From Octopus sinensis (taxonomy: Eukaryota), in NCBI RefSeq assembly GCF_006345805.1, contig NW_021834498.1, positions 1 to 47,817 on the forward strand: a stretch of DNA of 47,817 nucleotides, read 5' to 3'. Positions 1,913 through 44,227 of the stretch are shown here, one piece after another (within the stretch, counting starts at the first letter, position 1; the number at the start of each line of letters is the position of its first letter). The notes below the pieces were generated by a model. It was not told where the DNA came from. It searched no databases and saw nothing but the letters and a program-made list of their open reading frames with translations. A program made the position numbers and the translations under genes.

Positions 1913-2287
1913 CTATGTTGTGTCTGGGGAGAGTCATTCTCTTTTAGTGCCTTATTATTTAACACACTCACCGGTAAATTTTCCACTTATTTCTGATAAG
2001 GGTCAAGACTATGGAAAGGTTGCAAGACGCAACGAATATTTTAGAAAATAAAAATAAAAAATAAGTGGAAATTTTACCGGCGTGTGTGTTGAATAATAAG
2101 GCACTAAAAGAGAATGACTCTCCCCAGACAGAATAAAATAAGCTTCAACACACGAACTCATATAAAGAATCTTGCAAACCAAATCCAAAAACGAAATATA
2201 TACATACTAGTTATATATGTATATTTAATATATATGCATTACATATATTGCATATAATATGTATATATCTATCTATCTGTCTATCTA

Positions 2288-3007: not shown

Positions 3008-3117
3008 ATTCTGTGCTTGTGTTTGAGTGTTAGCGTGTAAAATATTCATACATACATACATACACACATATATATATATACTTAATTATACGCATATATT
3101 ATACATACATACGTAAA

Positions 3118-3375
3118 AATCTTAATAAACCAACAATAAAAGATACAGACAACCCTATAGAAACACAAAGAACCTCCTCCAAAATATAACGCCCCACACA
3201 AAAACCTTATAAATAAAATATCACCCCATTCAGACATAAGCAACAATGCAAACTCTACCGAGCCATATTCAATATTAAATCCAGAAAGTAACTCTGACCC
3301 CCACCCCTCATCAAAATCGAATGAAGCTCGATAAGTTTCCGCAATTATAGATATTATCAATATTAAAATATTAAC
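3118..3375 (-). pseudogene. ND1: Nuclear mitochondrial insertion (NUMT) of NADH dehydrogenase subunit 1
   Basis: Minus-strand translation AETYRASFDFDEGWGSELLSGFNIEYGSVEFALLLMSEWGDILF matches the ND1 signature AETNRxPFDxxEGESELVSGFNxEY. It is an isolated fragment with substitutions in normally invariant residues. Boundaries approximate. Confidence 0.9.
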
Positions 3376-3629
3376 AAAATATATGTTGATGCGTGCATAC
3401 CTAAAGTAATAGATAGACTGTCAGCAAAAGAGAGACACACAGACATAGACAAAGAAATTATCTGATCAATGAATGAATGTATGGAAAGATAAACAGGTAG
3501 AAAAGGCATACATACTTGCATCTTATGCGACTTCTTCGTGGCCGGTTTATTACAAGTGTTCGTATTTGAAAGAAGATAACGAAAATTTGAAGAAAAGTTA
3601 CACTAATCTCATGTCTACGCCCATCACTA

Positions 3630-4082
3630 CCACTACCTCCTGCACCACCACAGTCACCAGCAAATAAGGTCAATAATAACAAGAAGAAGATTATGAACAC
3701 ATTTTACATGTTCTTCGTTTTGATAGTTTTCTTTTTTTTTCAGTATTCTTTTCTCCAATTGAATACGAAAGAAAATGAAGGGAAGATCAAAGAGAGAATT
3801 TCGCTTGAATTAACACTAAGCAACGCACAGACAATAAGAAATTTAGCAATGGATGTCAAGCGAGGAGTAGGTCACTAAGTCACCTGGTCAGTCTGGACAA
3901 TCTACAGTATTTCGATATCTACAATTGTCCTAGCGTAAATTACAGAGCGGCCATATTTCGCCGGAGGGATGGTTTCCTTTAAAAGCATCGGCGGGTGGTG
4001 TGAGACTATTTCTGTTACTGATCCAAATTTACCGACTTCACACAAAATTATTTACCGACACAGAAAACTCGTCAATTTCACT
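3630..4082 (+). repeat. About 450-bp dispersed repeat, copy 1 (inverted relative to 11237-11681)
   Basis: Long near-identical blocks such as AATTTAGCAATGGATGTCAAGCGAGGAGTAGGTCACTAAGTCACCTGGTCAGTCTGGACAAT are reverse-complemented in copy 2. Strand label arbitrary. Confidence 0.9.
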
Positions 4083-7556: not shown

Positions 7557-7610
7557 CGGAGATGTACTTGCATAGCGAGTGACTGATCTGAGATCGTGTG
7601 ATGAAGCGAA

Positions 7611-7863
7611 AACAATTGCAGCGTGGAAGGTGTTTATATGCCATTTAGGAAACACACAAAACCGTTAGATTCACTTCAAATTTAAATTTAATTTGTCAAA
7701 ATATTTGCGTCGATTTCAGACCGTGACGAAGTTTTGTCAGGAACAGGTCGCGATCTCAAAGGGCCAAAAATATTTTGACAAATTAAATTTAAATGTTGAA
7801 GTGAATCTAACGGTTTTTGTGTTTCTTAAATTGCCTATAAACACCTTCCACGCTGCAATTGTT
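7611..7863. repeat. Palindromic (inverted duplication) element within TA arrays
   Basis: Arms 7611-7727 and 7747-7863 are diverged reverse complements (AACAATTGCAGCGTGGAAGGTGTTTATA...). Confidence 0.9.
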
Positions 7864-11236: not shown

Positions 11237-11681
11237 AGTGTAACTGACAGGTTTTCTGTGTCGGTAAATAATTTTGTTTGAAGTCGGTAAATTCGGATCA
11301 GCAACCGAAATAGTCTCACACCACCCACCGATGCTTTTAAAGGAAACCACCCTTCCGGCGAAATATGGCCGCTCTGTAATTTAGACTAGGACAATTGTAG
11401 ATATCGAAATTCTGTTGATTGTCCAGACTGACCAGGTGACTTAGTGACCTACTCCTCGCTTGACATCCATTGCTAAATTTCTTTTTCTCTGTTGTTTTGT
11501 GTTAATTCAGGCGAAATTTTCTCTTTGATCTCGATTTCTTTCGCGTTTAATTGGGGAAATGAAAGTTGAAAAGCGAAAAAGAAACTATCAAAATGAAGAA
11601 CATGTAAAATGTGTTCATAATCTTCTTCTTGTTATTATTGACTTTATTTGCTTGTGACTGTGGTAGTGGAAGTGGCTGTGG
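11237..11681 (-). repeat. About 450-bp dispersed repeat, copy 2
   Basis: Reverse complement of 3630-4082. Confidence 0.9.
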
Positions 11682-23098: not shown

Positions 23099-23303
23099 GA
23101 TATATATATAGATATATAGATATATATATATAGATAAGAAAGTTGGTTTGTGAAAGCACGTAGGTGAATATATAGAAAATAGTAACGAGTGAAAAAACTA
23201 CAGAAGGCTTAAATGTTAAAAAATATATATATTTGCGTCAATATGTCTGAAGAATATTAGAAAATTAAAAATTTTTTTTTTCTCTTATAATGACATAATT
23301 TAA

Positions 23304-23342
23304 AAGAAAGACCGGTTTCGCGTGTAGCTTTTCAAATTTCTT
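23304..23342 (-). ncRNA. Minimal type I hammerhead ribozyme motif, U3-A8 core variant
   Basis: Minus strand: AAGAAA-U-UUGAAAA-GC-UACAC-GC-GAAA-CCGGUC-UUUCUU. Stem I AAGAAA/UUUCUU (one extra U), 2-bp stem II, palindromic ACCGGU stem III, GUC cleavage triplet. It lies in the 3' region of the PLE, on its sense strand. Confidence 0.72.
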
Positions 23343-23451
23343 GCGACGTTATGTTTATGTTGAATAGAGTTATCGTTATGTTTATGTTCAGAAGAGTTCT
23401 AAATAAGGGAAGGTAGTGAGTGATTTCTTCCGGTGTAAGGGAGATAATCGC

Positions 23452-25689
23452 TTAACATTTTTTTCCTTTCCCTTGGTGTGAATTTCTCTGTATCAGTATG
23501 TTCGGATGGTTGAGTCTGGGCTTGTACTTTTCAATGAAGAATGTTTCCTTGTTTAGTCTAATTTGTGTTGATGATCCGAAAGCACATTGGTAAAATGGAA
23601 AGATTAAAAATTGTGGTAGTAGTTGCTTTGCGCATTTCTCAATGTGCTCACTAAAAGGTATCATTCTATATTCTGGGAATGCAATCTGTTGTCGATGCAG
23701 TGTGCATCTACGTCTGAGTGATAGTCCCGTGGAACCCACGTAGTCTTGGTGGCAGCCCGAGCATTTTATGACATAAATTATGTTTTCAGAGGCACAAGTA
23801 AAGTTAGATTTGATCTTGAATTTCTGTCCCTCTTTAAAGAGGAATTCTGATCCTTCTAGCAGGTTAGGACATGTTGCACAGTTCGATCTACCACATTTTT
23901 TTACTTTTGCATCCGTAATTTCAGAAGACAATTTTGCCTTTGTGAGAATCTTTTTGAGTGATTTAGGCTGTTTGTAGCTTTTATTGATTTGGTGTATGTT
24001 TAGAATTTCCTTTAATTTGGGGTCTTTATGAAGTATTGGTAAATTCTGGGTGATGATGGTGAAGGCTTCTTTGTTTCTGGGGTTGTATGTAGATATGTAA
24101 GGTAGTATTTTCGGGGAAGGTGTGTTGTTGTATTGAACTTTTCTTAAAGTTTCTATGTTGATTTCTGTTGCACGTCTGATCCCATCCTCTATGAGTTGAG
24201 CTGGGTAATGTCTGTCAATTAGGGTGTTTTTGAGTTCTTGCAGTCTAAAGTTCCTGGTATTTTGTTCTGACACTATTGTGCATATCCTTCTTGCAAGGTT
24301 GAAGGGGATGTTTGTTTTAGTGTGTCTTGGGTGGCATGAATTAAAAAGAAGGTATTGTTTGGCGTCTGTGGCTTTGTAAAAAATGTCTGTTTCTATTTTA
24401 AGGTTAATTTTTTAATTAGTATATCCAGAACGGGAGCTCCTTTTGGTTGTATTCCATTGTGAACTGTATATTTGGGTTTATGCTGTTCAATAGGTTTTTA
24501 AATTTTAGGAGTTTATCTGTGTTTTCATTCCAGAGAATAAAACAATCGTCTAAGAATCGTTTCCAATTCTCTTTTATGTATTGAGAGAGGGGGTTTCCAA
24601 AGATTGATAAAGATCCTGGTAAATGATTATTTCCATGTATCCCATTGTTAAGTTCGCAATGACTGGTGCTGCCCTTGTACCCATAGCAATTCCGGATTTT
24701 TGACGGTAAAATGTATTGTCAAACATGAAGTGGTTATTGTGTAGGATGAATTCAATTGATTTAGTAATGAATTCTTTACTGATCCTTTTTGGTATTTCTT
24801 CCGGAAATTGATCTAACCAGAACTGTATTGCCTCCAGTCCATAATTATGAGGTATACTGGTATATAAGTTAACTACATCAAATGAAACCAGGATTGTTTC
24901 TTCCTTGGCTTTTTTTGGAAGGTGGTTTAACATATCTAAGTCATCTCTGATATGGCTATCGATATGTTTAAGGAAGGGTTTCAGGAGGATGTCCATAAGT
25001 AGACTTAGTCTGTGTGTTTCACAGGTTGGGCCAGCTACAATGGGTCGTAGTTTTAGGTCCCCCGGGTTAGGTGTGTGTATGTATGTCTTTGGTGATTTTT
25101 TAATGGTTTCATTTATAATTTGACTTTTATGAATTTTTGGCAGACCATAGAAAAGGCTAGGTTTGCATTTAAAGTTTGTTGTTAGTTCCTTTTCATGGGT
25201 TTTAATTAGTGAAGATAGAGTTTTCATTATTTTTTGTGGGGTGTAGGTGGTAATTTTTTCATAATGTAGGTCGTCATCAAGCAAGGAAATTACAAGATTT
25301 CTGTAGTATGATGTATCCATTATTACAACTGCATTTCCCTTGTCTGCTTCCTTAATGGTTATATATTCATCATTTTGAAGTTCTATCAGCTCTTTCCATT
25401 GTGTAGTGTTAAAATTTGAGTTAACTTTCTGTTTATGTATAGTATGGTAGGGAAAGTTCTCAATGTGGTTACAGAATTCGTCAAGATCTTTATTTCTTCC
25501 TCTGTGTGGGATGTGTTCACTTTTGTTCTTGACTAGTGATTCATCTTCAGTATTGAAACTGGTTGATGCTTCTGCTAGTCTTAATTTTCTGCAAAATTCT
25601 GTTATATTATCCTTGATTTCATTTAGGTTGGTTCTGCGTGGAGTTGGTGTAAATTTGAGCCCTTTTGAGAGGATGTCAATTTTTATGTT
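23452..25689 (-). pseudogene. PLE RT-GIY-YIG polyprotein reading frame broken by three 1-nt deletions
   Basis: ORFs 24574-25824 and 23452-24273 are linked through alternative frames IFGNPLSQYIKENWKRFLDDCFILWNE...ELP, (F)LDILIK and IETDIFYKATDAKQYLLFNSCHPRHTKTNIPFNLARRICTIVSEQ. Confidence 0.88.
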
Positions 25690-28689: not shown

Positions 28690-30145
28690 GCAGGCATGGC
28701 TGTGTAGTAAGTAGCTTGCTTACCAACCACATAGTTCCAGGTTCAGTCCCACTGGGTAAGTGTCTTCTACTAAAGCTTCGGGCCGACCAAAGCCTTGCGA
28801 GTGGATTTGGTTGACAGAAACTGAAAGAAGCCCGTCATATATACGAGGGACGTTCAATAAGTAATGCCTCTGACACACTTGCTGTTGTTTGATCTAGCTG
28901 AAATTCTGCATGTGCAATCAATTATATCTCTATAGAGTAAGTGGCAAATTACAGCTCTGAGCTAATTGTGGTTTCTGATTTACAGGAGTTTGAACCGAGT
29001 CAAGTGTGAAATGGAGCCTGTTGAGTGTCGAGCAGTGATCCGGTTTTTGTATTTGAAAGGACGCACACCACGGGAGACTTTTGATGAAATGAAAGTAACT
29101 TATGGTGATGATGCCCCATCATATGACCTTGTAAAACGCTGGCATCGTGAATTCAAACATGGTCGGAACTCTGTGGAAGCAGCTCCCAGATCTGGTCGCC
29201 CCCTTCTGCCATTGATGAGGCATCTATCCGTCAATTGAGGCTGCCATTTTGGAAGATCGACGCATAACTATTCGCCAAATAGCCCATAAGGTCAAGATTA
29301 GTACCGGGTCTGTGGAAACTATCATTCATGACCATTTGCATATGCAAAAGGTATCTGCCGATGGATTCCCAGGTTGCTCACGCCTTTCCAGAAGCAAGAA
29401 CGCGTCGAGTGCTCGAGGATGAATTTGGAAATGTGCCAAGAAGATGAGTCAAAATTTTTCAAAAGACTGATTACACAGGATGAAACCTGGGTCCATCACG
29501 ATGATCCAGAGACCAAAGCCCAGTCAATGCAGTGGAAGCACCGTGACTCACCCCCTCCAAAGAAGGCAAGGGTGCAGCCCTCCGCTGGCAAGGACATGCT
29601 CACAGTCTTCTGGGACCAGGACGGAGTAGTGATGACAGATTTCCTGGCAAAGGGAACCACAATTGCAGGAGCCTATTATGCTTCACTTTTGAGGAAATTA
29701 AGAGAAGTTATCAAAATCAAGAGGCGGGGTAAGATCAGCAAAGGCATCCTCCTCCTGCAGGACAACGCTCCGGTCCACAACTCGCTTGTCGCCAGATCAG
29801 AAGCACAGGCGTATGACTATGAACTCCTCTCCCATCCCCCTACTTTCCTGACCTTGCACCCTCTGATTTTCACCTCTTCCCACTCATGAAGTTGTTTTTG
29901 AAAGGAAAGCGTTTCCCAGATGATGAAGCCTTGATTTCTGAAGTCGCGTTCAGGTCGGAGGACCAAGCTGGGGTCTTCTATAAAAACGGTCTCCAGAGCT
30001 GCATCAAACAATGAGAGAAATGCATAACTCTGGGTGGTTCCTATGTAGAAAAAGACTAATAACTGTGCCAAGTTTCGTTGCTCTACTGCTATGGGAAGTG
30101 GGTCAGGGGCATTACTTATTGAACGCCCCTCGTATATATATGTAC

Positions 30146-34324: not shown

Positions 34325-35449
34325 CATTTATCAAAGAAATAGATAGTTGTCATTCTAGTATTAGTTCTAGCGATATTCTCGTCATTTTTACAATATAGTA
34401 GGATCTGATGGGCACCATTCTGTGAGAAAAACAGCACCATGACGCAATTAGGTTTGCCAGATATTTGGAAACGATATGCTGTACTGTTTGGCATCCACGC
34501 CGGAAGTTCCAATACGAACAGTCCCGGGTGATTGGACATCAAACTCAAGAGAGTGCAGCGGTTTCGGAAAGAGTTAGATGAGTCTAATGGTGATTATGAA
34601 GGTACGGCAGCTCGCAAAACACACTCTGATCGTTCTGATAAGAAAAGAACTCCTGAATTTGTTGGTGAGATCCAGGCCATGATTGACAACGATCCCTCCA
34701 AGTCAATCTGTTCCAAGGCCAGGGACATGGGAGTGAGTTTCTTATTGGGCAGGTGGTGAATGAAGACATTCAGTATGCCTTATACAAGATGAAATAGGGC
34801 CAATTTTTATCCCAAGTCATCAAGGACAGGAGGAAAGACCGCACTACGAAGCTTTTGAACAAATTCAAGCATCCGCTCGAACCGAACGTGATTTGGTTTT
34901 TCTCAGACGAAAAAGTTTTCTGTCAGGATCATATGATGAACACACAAAACAAGCGTTGCTTTGCCGTGTTCCCGAAACATGTACCGAGAATGATAAAAAT
35001 CAAACATCCAGTCAACATCATGGAGTTTCAAGTGATTACAAGTGATGGCCACGTTATGCAACCATCCATCTCCTCACACGGCCTCACACTCAACATGGAG
35101 GTCTACATCAGGTGCCTGGAGGAGGTAGTGCTGCTCCGGGTCAAGAGGGTGGCTGCTGGAAGACCCTATATCTGGCAACAGGGCTCTGCACCATGCCACA
35201 CAAGCAAGAGAATCTAGTCATAGCTATAAGACAATTTCTGCGGTCACGCCTCCCCTAACATCTGGCCACCTAACTAGTCAGGAGACCGTCGTCCGGAGAC
35301 CGTGGTTGAAGCCAATGGCGATTTTATTGAATAAATTTACTCTTTAGTATTTCAAGATATTTTTATGTAATCTTTGTAAATATATCTATGATGTCAGTGT
35401 CATTTTCATCTTTGCGTAATTTAGACGACAATGTATTCACCGCACTCTG
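34325..35449 (+). mobile_element. Tc1/mariner-superfamily (DD37D/maT-like) transposon relic, 5' TIR not seen, internal deletion
   Basis: WFFSDEKVF, KHPVNIM, YIWQQGSAPCHTS and WPPN motifs, with stops and frameshifts. The 3' terminus is shared with the 9345-9972 copy. Confidence 0.85.
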
Positions 35450-42869: not shown

Positions 42870-44060
42870 CATATCTCCAGCTTTAGCACTGCTTCCGTGT
42901 CGGGACCTTCTTTGTTTCGGTTCCATTATGTGTTCGCTGTTTTCTCTAGCAATTCCGCTTCCTTTTGTTTCATGCCTCTTTCTTCCAGCCAGTCGTCATC
43001 TTTGACATCCATGTCATCTTCTTCTCCCTCTATTTCATCCCTTTCTATCTTTTCGACCATTGCTAACTTTTCTCGGCTCTCTTTCCTCATCACGTGACCG
43101 TGAAAGCTCAGTTGCGAGACTTTTATTTCATGAAGCAGTTTCCTATTTAAAGCAGCCCTGGTTATCCCTTCTTCGTCAAACACTTTGCATGCGCATGCCA
43201 TTCCTCAATATTAAGAGACTTAAGGGGATTAAGAACTACATTTCACACCCCTCCCAGCCCCTTCTCATTTCTAATGTTACAGACCATACCTCACATCCAT
43301 ATATTAACACAAGGTAGACACAGCAGTTCAATATACAGAAACTGTTCTTGATGCTCAGAGTACAGTCTCCCAAGATGTTATGCAATTTCGAGAAAATAGA
43401 CCTTGTCAGCGCTGGCGAAGAGCTGGCAGAAACGTGAGCAAGCCGGGCGAAATGCTTAGCGGTATTTCGTCTGCCGTTTCGTTCTGAGTTCAAATTCCGC
43501 CGGGGTAGACTTTGCCTTTCATCCTTTCGAGGTTGCACTGGGGTCGATATAATCGACTTAATCCGTTTATCTGTCCTTGTTTGTCCCTTCTGTGTTTAGC
43601 CCCTTGTGAGTAGTAAAGAAACAGGTATTTCTTCTGTCTTTACGTACTGAGTTCAAATTCCGCTAAGGTCGACTTTGCCTTTCATCATTTCGGGGTCGAT
43701 AAATTAAGTACCAGTTGCGTACTACGGTCGATCTAATCGACTGGCTCCTCCCCCAAAATTTAGAGCCTTGTGCGTACAGTAGAAAAAATCTCCTTCACAC
43801 ATCTTGCCTCTTCAGTGATCAAAGATAGTTGAAAGATGATACCTGCTTAATGATTTGATTGTTCACTTTCAGCATGCACTTTGGGCTTCTCTTCTTTGTC
43901 ACAATCTTCACCATACTCTCTTTCTTCTTGCAATTTATGACCCTCCCTCTCACTTTCTCCAACGGCTACATCCAGAAGTCTCTGAAGTTCTTTTACCGAT
44001 TCTTCGACTAAAACTGTGTCATCTGCATATGTTATGTCTGTAGTGTCTGGACTTTGCACT
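42870..44060 (-). mobile_element. Degenerate RTE-clade LINE reverse transcriptase fragment, interrupted by a SINE
   Basis: TYADDTVLV..SVKELQRLL (43847-44146 ORF), VYLVLIYGCEVW (43236-43538 ORF) and QLSFHGHVMRKE (42926-43201 ORF) occur in the order expected for RTE RT and its C-terminus. Confidence 0.8.
43414..43785 (+). mobile_element. SINE family B, dimeric copy inserted in the RTE fragment
   Basis: GAGCTGGCAGAA...CTGAGTTCAAATTCCGC...GACTTTGCCTTTCATC; the body occurs twice (about 43455-43620 and 43625-43785). Confidence 0.75.
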
Positions 44061-44165
44061 CCAAGGTTTTGTGAAACACAGATTAATTGCGGTCTTTTTT
44101 TCAGCTCAGAACATAAAGCTGGAAGAAATGCAGCTAAGCATTTCATCCGCCAAAGATTCCGCCAA

Positions 44166-44227
<62 letters not shown>

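What the first reader, a model, noticed from the sequence alone, without database searches (positions are those of the whole stretch)
23304..23342. Penelope-borne minimal hammerhead ribozyme with compensatory U3-A8 core
Seen: core UUGAAAA instead of CUGANGA. The two changes fall exactly at positions 3 and 8, which form a Watson-Crick tertiary pair in hammerheads, so C-G becomes U-A rather than random decay. Stem I (6 bp), stem II (2 bp), GAAA, palindromic ACCGGU and GUC are all in place about 110 nt downstream of the ORF stop. Established: PLE terminal repeats encode minimal hammerheads thought to act as dimers. Inference: an active or recently active ribozyme cleaving after C at 23310. With the motifs at 2009 and 7733 it suggests a local set of core-variant ribozymes in TA-targeting elements that canonical searches miss.
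Basis: partly seen in the sequence, partly recalled or inferred. Interest (0 to 1): 0.75.

Follow-up and report, generated by a model that had tools for sequence, protein, structure and literature searches.

The report
Penelope hammerhead: lost, regained stem pair
A broken copy of a Penelope-type jumping gene carries a small hammerhead-ribozyme-shaped RNA motif whose U-A core pair is the family norm and already published; this copy's lineage also lacks one base next to the predicted cut site, which likely weakens cutting and which a younger, larger sister lineage likely regained.

Summary
The motif is real, on the minus strand, in the 3' pseudo-LTR of a 5'-truncated, frameshifted Penelope-like element. 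U3 is fixed in the family (67 of 67 unbiased copies; A8 59, G8 8), so it is not decay of this copy. U3-A8 in Penelope hammerheads was published in 2014, and this scan noted it on other DNA. Older subfamilies keep A1.1. A tree of flanking DNA says it was lost once and regained in the largest recent subfamily (AU p=1.9e-5; recombination not excluded). Core and stem I vary far less than flanks (p about 3e-4 to 7e-4) and N17 is C, A or U, never G: selection on a hammerhead fold. Activity is untested. This copy has no dimer partner and is probably inert; an unbiased test for genomic cut-site scars showed no clear peak. The motifs at 2009 and 7733 belong to unrelated fold-back repeats and fail the consensus, but genome-wide, non-C3-G8 cores (U3-A8, A3-U8) dominate ACCGGU-type motifs.

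The parts
23304..23342 (-). Minimal type I hammerhead motif, U3-A8 core, A1.1-less form
   Evidence: same motif in close family copies
23337..23342 (-). Stem I, 5' strand (2.7-2.2)
   Evidence: pairs with 23309-23304; 2.7/1.7 is G-C in an older subfamily and A-U here
23336..23336 (-). Orphan U2.1; its partner A1.1 is absent in this lineage
   Evidence: 392 exact GUC copies with A1.1 and 695 without; tree
23329..23335 (-). Core U3 U4 G5 A6 A7 A8 A9
   Evidence: U3 in 67 of 67, A8 in 59 and G8 in 8 of 67 unbiased copies
23320..23328 (-). Stem II, 2 bp (G10.1-C11.1) with a variable 5-nt loop
   Evidence: loop positions vary among subfamilies, C11.1 does not
23311..23319 (-). G12 A13 A14 and the 6-nt palindrome (A15.1 to U16.1) predicted to form stem III in a dimer
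   Evidence: invariant among subfamily majorities; cofolding
23310..23310 (-). C17; predicted cut between 23310 and 23309
   Evidence: hammerhead consensus; N17 is A 33, C 28, U 4, gap 2, G 0 among 67 copies
23168..23451 (-). 3' untranslated part of the pseudo-LTR
   Evidence: family homology ends at about 23168 in copies without tail
23131..23167 (-). About 37-nt PLE 'tail', followed by (TA)n
   Evidence: present on only some copies; continues into the 5' UTR in the near-full element L151
23452..24411 (-). C-terminal ORF piece: end of RT, C-x4-C-x2-C linker, GIY-YIG-type endonuclease with CCHH
   Evidence: motifs read by eye; no Pfam hit at E up to 0.01
24416..25689 (-). RT-coding part in two further frames (two frameshifts), 5'-truncated
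   Evidence: Pfam RVT_1 E 9.8e-5, 22.6 bits, below the curated cut-off; 94.9% identical to L151
25686..25836 (.). 5' junction: a 42-nt piece of the endonuclease region and a 110-nt inverted ORF piece; no upstream pseudo-LTR
   Evidence: blastn against L151

Best explanation
The motif is the hammerhead-shaped RNA element in the pseudo-LTR of a C-terminal-endonuclease Penelope-like retrotransposon family, and it likely self-cleaves after N17 when two copies pair through their palindromes. Shown: position, strand, family-wide U3, conservation pattern, presence of subfamilies with and without A1.1. Inferred: in transcripts of tandem source elements two motifs pair to form stem III, U3-A8 replaces C3-G8, and cutting (probably slow, possibly helped by the element's protein) trims the RNA so that it begins at 1.1. 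The window copy descends from a lineage that lost A1.1, leaving U2.1 unpaired, which likely lowers activity without stopping transposition; the copy itself is truncated, single and probably inert. A later lineage likely restored the pair.
For: Sense strand, 110 nt after the ORF stop, as for published PLE hammerheads (PMC4209133). Sample chosen by an anchor 100 nt downstream, blind to the motif (3132 matches, first 100 fetched): among clusters defined by flank columns only, 0-1 of 17 core and 0-2 of 13 stem I positions vary against 32-41 of 98 flank positions (Fisher p 2.8e-4 to 6.8e-4); the two stem I changes are one compensatory pair; N17 never G. The active dimer fold is the minimum-energy cofold for the GUC+A1.1 form (-13.3 kcal/mol) and 0.6 kcal/mol above it for the window form. 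A1.1-bearing rows are rejected as one clade (20 of 50 rows, AU p 1.9e-5, 2 changes). Other families in the genome keep 3-8 complementary: A3-U8 13 of 13 (families B, C), U3-A8 10 of 10 (E), C3-G8 7 and U3-A8 3 (F) among fetched loci, which were picked by position-8 class. Natural U3-A8 reported in PMC3088659.
Against: No cleavage data. A1.1-less lineages amplified to at least 695 exact copies, and a very young lineage combines the loss with a U3.G8 wobble (7 of 101 copies, nearest-neighbour divergence 0.005), so a perfect fold is not needed to spread. No locus with two direct, intact family hammerheads was seen; both full-length 5' ends found lack the upstream one. Unbiased 5'-junction rate at the cut site (6 events, 0.50 per nt per 100 copies) is not above -63..-34 (10 events, 0.44). 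In an Anolis PLE the hammerhead was not needed for insertion in vitro and no RNA-seq ends mapped to the cut (PMC11167929). Stem II has only 2 bp and lacks the extra base between 9 and 10.1 usual in published minimal motifs. One abundant family (D) matches the core pattern with C3.U8 and no stem I.
Confidence: 0.72

Rival explanations
1. The fold is kept for a job other than cutting, such as binding the element's RT-EN protein, RNA dimerisation or packaging; catalysis is vestigial.
For: A1.1-less and U3.G8 lineages spread recently; no clear cut-site peak; hammerhead mutants did not affect insertion in vitro in another PLE (PMC11167929); low in vitro activity of minimal motifs (PMC4209133).
Against: The conserved positions are the unpaired catalytic ones, N17 changes only among C, A and U, and 3-8 stays complementary in families B, C, E and F, which points to the catalytic geometry.
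Confidence: 0.18
2. The A1.1-less form is a fully active natural variant: U2.1 is a tolerated one-base insertion before U3, and the later A is neutral slippage or recombination, not repair.
For: The lineage kept every other core and stem position while diversifying into at least five subfamilies; the loop II sequence is homoplastic on the tree, hinting at recombination; old subfamilies carry the same GUA+A1.1 junction.
Against: Insertions next to position 3 impaired cleavage in saltern hammerheads (two-base case, PMC3088659); the A1.1-bearing young lineage is the largest cluster (25 of 67).
Confidence: 0.25
3. Chance look-alike or neutral remnant with no selection on it.
For: No Rfam hit; monomer folds no better than shuffles.
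Against: 0 of 200 shuffles give a hit; 5047 genome matches against 298 for the control pattern; significant conservation against flanks.
Confidence: 0.03

Closest known systems
Minimal type I hammerheads (min-HHR) of metazoan Penelope-like elements, including the U3-A8 variant of Schistosoma mansoni Cercyon elements (Cervera and De la Pena 2014, PMC4209133; read: main text parts 1-2 of 4, supplement file 2 part 1 of 3 plus a term search)
   Same: In the pseudo-LTR, type I layout, palindromic 15.2-16.2 region, G10.1-C11.1, NUH site, U3-A8 core (about 1,300 hits in S. mansoni), mostly single dispersed copies and opposite-strand pairs.
   Different: Stem II is 2 bp (published consensus is longer), no extra base between 9 and 10.1, a 2-nt loop III, and a lineage-wide loss of A1.1 with apparent regain; U3.G8 sublineages.
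Natural core variants of Perreault et al. 2011 (PMC3088659; read: passages)
   Same: U3-A8 covariation in nature; short insertions between stem I and position 3 (2a/2b).
   Different: Their insertion variants came from saltern metagenomes and the tested one had two extra bases; here one unpaired U arises by deletion of the partner base in a eukaryotic retroelement.
Hammerhead of the Anolis Poseidon PLE (Frangieh et al. 2024, PMC11167929; read: part 1 of 4 and passages)
   Same: PLE hammerhead dependent on the 3-8 pair; tail structure at element ends.
   Different: C3-G8 core overlapping the start codon; here U3-A8, about 200 nt upstream of the start codon of the next unit.
Diminished-stem-III hammerhead variants that cleave as dimers (Lunse, Weinberg and Breaker, RNA Biol 14:1499; seen only as a reference and summary in PMC6765202; paper not held)
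   Same: PLE-linked, short palindromic stem III, dimer mechanism.
   Different: Could not check whether its alignments include this family or these core variants.

Membership tests
Minimal type I hammerhead of PLEs | Located in a PLE pseudo-LTR on the sense strand | tested here: met
Minimal type I hammerhead of PLEs | Core N3 U G A N N8 A with a Watson-Crick 3-8 pair, then GAAA | tested here: met
   U3-A8 in the window; 59 of 67 copies, U3.G8 in 8
Minimal type I hammerhead of PLEs | A15.1-U16.1, palindromic stem III region, NUH site | tested here: met
Minimal type I hammerhead of PLEs | Stem II closed by G10.1-C11.1 | tested here: met
   2 bp only
Minimal type I hammerhead of PLEs | Stem I closed by a 1.1-2.1 pair directly at the core (window copy) | tested here: not met
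   U2.1 unpaired in the window copy and its lineage; the copy is filed as a derived, damaged form, not as an intact member
Minimal type I hammerhead of PLEs | Stem I closed by a 1.1-2.1 pair (older and youngest sister subfamilies) | tested here: met
   7-bp stem I in GUC+A1.1 (392 exact copies), old GUA/GUU and young GUA subfamilies
Minimal type I hammerhead of PLEs | Extra base between 9 and 10.1 (usual, not part of the published descriptor) | tested here: not met
   absent in all ten subfamily groups
Minimal type I hammerhead of PLEs | Second direct copy in the same transcript for dimer formation | tested here: inconclusive
   absent at the window locus; no direct intact pair among fetched family loci, only 2 full-length 5' ends seen
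Minimal type I hammerhead of PLEs | Self-cleavage after N17 | not testable with these tools
   only contigs, no raw RNA reads listed; genomic junction test inconclusive
C-terminal EN+ Penelope-like element (Neptune/Nematis type) | RT followed by GIY-YIG endonuclease with CCHH and a Cys linker motif | tested here: met
   motifs by eye; weak Pfam RT hit, no Pfam EN hit; clade description in PMC8557442 (passages)
C-terminal EN+ Penelope-like element (Neptune/Nematis type) | pLTR, optional 30-40 bp tail, inverted partner copies, (TA)n flanks | tested here: met
C-terminal EN+ Penelope-like element (Neptune/Nematis type) | Phylogenetic placement in Neptune versus Nematis | not tested
   no reference PLE proteins were fetched

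The most novel reading that the evidence does not exclude
The family is a natural mutation-and-rescue series for a retrotransposon ribozyme: on a fixed U3-A8 core it lost the base pair at the cut site, tried a U3.G8 wobble and an N17 change, and its largest recent burst comes from a lineage that rebuilt the pair. That would be in vivo evidence that hammerhead cleavage rate is under selection in Penelope transposition, in a genome where non-canonical 3-8 pairs are the rule.
Probability: 0.35. Interest if true: 0.55.

Novelty: new member of a known kind. Interest (0 to 1): 0.3.

Why it matters
Whether PLE hammerheads cut in vivo and matter for transposition is open (PMC8557442 calls their function unclear; PMC11167929 found them dispensable in vitro). 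This family supplies dated natural variants differing by one or two bases (with or without A1.1, A8 or G8, C17 or A17) that can be assayed side by side and compared with their copy numbers. It also shows that CUGANGA searches would find at most about 6% of GUC-type ACCGGU motifs in this genome (262 of 4447 flanked matches have G8; roughly half of the U/C8 class listed is family D, which may not be a hammerhead). The U3-A8 core itself is not news.

Tried and rejected
1) Rfam: whole window gave only microsatellite-driven miRNA matches among the 150 of 394 rows shown; none on 23260-23460. 2) Cut-site scars. A targeted pattern found 34 matches, 8 of them indels or decay and 26 junctions, about 21 independent by eye, against 1 junction among 6 matches 12-18 nt upstream but about 15 junctions among 20 matches about 55 nt downstream. 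About 9 of the 21 have C before position +1, and microhomology is evident. In the unbiased sample of 101 copies the site was not enriched. Rejected as support. 3) Expression: no RNA holder listed, only contigs; four runs of other organism codes were laid and hold the family but add nothing on cutting. 4) First tree was distorted by trimming to the majority (25 rows dropped) and the second (14 rows dropped) has an artefactual clade of truncated copies; one search used 50 long copies (7 unclassified rows left out, two large groups capped) with the hammerhead columns removed; its root is the midpoint, and the direction rests on older, more divergent subfamilies having A1.1. 5) The conservation test used motif-based anchors and groups (circular) and was redone with a motif-blind sample. 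7) Literature: searches for A3-U8/U3-A8/G3-C8 terms gave 2 papers, hammerhead plus octopus 4 listed and none on this topic, truncation at the cut site 3, 3-8 covariation 15 of 63 listed; none describes loss and regain of the 1.1-2.1 pair or a natural A3-U8 PLE family, but Lunse 2017, Przybilski 2007 and Hammann 2012 were not held and supplement file 1 of PMC4209133 could not be read.

Full report
Observation. The motif lies on the minus strand at 23342-23304. One detail was missed: an extra U at 23336 separates the 6-bp stem I from U3. A relaxed type I descriptor finds only this site in the window and nothing in 200 shuffles. Rfam has no match and the monomer is not stably folded, as expected for a motif with a 2-nt stem III loop.

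Host element. The motif sits in the 3' pseudo-LTR of a Penelope-like element with RT followed by a GIY-YIG-type endonuclease and a Cys linker, a tail and (TA)n flank. The copy is 5'-truncated at about 25689, has two frameshifts and no upstream pseudo-LTR. The genome is 2.72 Gb; a cephalopod origin is my guess from size and repeat content, not a tool result. The family is large: 2703 candidates by DNA search and 3132 exact matches to a 20-nt anchor near the 3' end.

Is U3-A8 decay? No. The 30 closest loci carry the same core. In a sample chosen without regard to the motif (first 100 anchor matches, 101 copies, 67 reaching past the motif) U3 is present in 67 of 67, with A8 in 59 and G8 in 8. No C3 relative was found in this family, so the C-G to U-A change is not witnessed here. 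It is witnessed in an unrelated tandem repeat of about 355 bp, whose sister subfamilies have C3-G8 or U3-A8. Two other families with PLE endonuclease upstream have A3-U8. Among flanked GUC-type ACCGGU motifs the counts are A8 2339, U/C8 1846 and G8 262, with controls of 49, 129 and 35; about 92 of the first 100 A8 matches listed have U3 (counted by eye). Family D, roughly half of the U/C8 list, has C3.U8 and no stem I and may not be a hammerhead.

Selection. Among clusters defined only by flank columns, core and stem I positions vary much less than flanks at three thresholds (p 2.8e-4 to 6.8e-4), the only stem I change is a compensatory A-U/G-C pair, loop II varies freely, and N17 takes A, C or U but never G. 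G17 impairs minimal hammerheads (PMC3884650, abstract and passages). Flank columns include poly-A/T tracts that inflate their variability somewhat.

The orphan U. Sister subfamilies have an A at 1.1 that pairs with this U and gives a 7-bp stem I: 392 exact GUC copies with it, 695 without, plus GUA and GUU forms not counted there. A maximum-likelihood tree of 50 long copies with the motif columns removed places the A1.1-less copies, including the window copy, in one clade (100/99) that also contains, nested (100/100), a GUA+A1.1 subfamily; holding all A1.1-bearing rows together is rejected (AU p 1.9e-5). That subfamily is the largest cluster (25 of 67) and young (median nearest-neighbour divergence 0.007 for GUA+A1.1 against 0.025 for GUC without A1.1). 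The simplest reading is loss then regain; exchange with an older lineage is not excluded, since loop II is homoplastic. Against a strict need for the pair, a small A1.1-less U3.G8 lineage is just as young (0.005, 7 of 101). Cofolding gives the active dimer as the minimum-energy state for GUC+A1.1 and as 0.6 kcal/mol above it for the window form; for the young GUA+A1.1 form it is 1.4 kcal/mol above a state with extra A17/U3 pairing. Published work used a deletion that breaks the closing 1.1-2.1 pair as a mutant in dimer assays (legend S6A of PMC4209133; gel not seen), and a two-base insertion before position 3 impaired cleavage (PMC3088659).

In vivo cutting. If transcripts began at the cut, 5' junctions should pile up there. 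A targeted search looked promising (about 21 junctions at the site against 1 just upstream), but a downstream control gave about 15 and the unbiased profile shows no clear peak. The two full-length 5' ends seen begin about 5 and about 60 nt downstream of the site, which is compatible but weak. No raw RNA reads were available. Activity remains untested.

The other two motifs. 2009 and 7733 lie in the loops of long fold-back repeats unrelated to this element. Relatives of 2009 have a U3-A8 or U3.G8-like core, a 5-bp stem and GAAA, but I found no stem I or III; the window copy has lost core bases. 7733 lacks an intact core and GAAA. Earlier scan notes describe permuted hammerheads and head-to-head PLE ends in such repeats; I did not test that here.

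Comparison and verdict. U3-A8 hammerheads in Penelope elements were reported in 2014 (PMC4209133) and in nature in 2011; this scan noted U3-A8, A3-U8 and cut-site scars on other DNA. The finding is a new member of a known kind. What it adds is a resolved lineage series around the cut site that makes the open question of PLE hammerhead function directly assayable. Interest 0.3.

Noticed in passing
L031, L035, L049, L033, L042 (G000 C1): Two PLE families (36-64% endonuclease identity to the window element) with A3-U8 cores and 2-bp stem II with a tetraloop; not found in print in my searches, noted before by this scan on other DNA.
   Followed up: partly
L160, L072, L161, L162: About 355-bp tandem repeat with a well-formed type I hammerhead (6-bp stem I, 4-bp stem II); sister subfamilies C3-G8 and U3-A8; no PLE protein hit nearby, resembles a non-LTR retrozyme.
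   Followed up: partly
L032, L036, L048 and many: Abundant homogeneous family D with a hammerhead-like core (C3.U8), GAAA and ACCGGU-C site but no adjacent stem I and no PLE hit within 1.5 kb; unexplained, perhaps a split or permuted core.
   Followed up: no
L044, L054, L081: Family E: U3-A8 core with an A/U-rich stem II lacking G10.1-C11.1.
   Followed up: partly
window 1918-2133: Fold-back repeat in (TA)n; relatives (L198, L189, L015) have a variant core, 5-bp stem and GAAA at the loop, without an evident stem I.
   Followed up: partly
window 7610-7862: Second fold-back repeat in (TA)n, 85% self-complementary over 255 nt; relatives in L173 and L150.
   Followed up: partly
L155 (G000 C5:68631272): One U3.G8 copy has also lost the orphan U, restoring a gap-free 6-bp stem I; single copy, may be chance.
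   Followed up: no
window 29332-29889 (+) and 34798-35217 (+): Open frames that read like mariner/Tc1-type transposase fragments (by eye, no search run).
   Followed up: no
window 43236-44167 (-): Frames that read like RTE/LINE reverse transcriptase remnants (by eye, no search run).
   Followed up: no
window 3082-3420 (-): Frame that reads like a mitochondrial ND1 fragment, possibly a nuclear copy of mitochondrial DNA (by eye, no search run).
   Followed up: no
window 3827-4082 and 11237-11492: Two copies of a 256-nt dispersed repeat, 93% alike, in opposite orientation.
   Followed up: no
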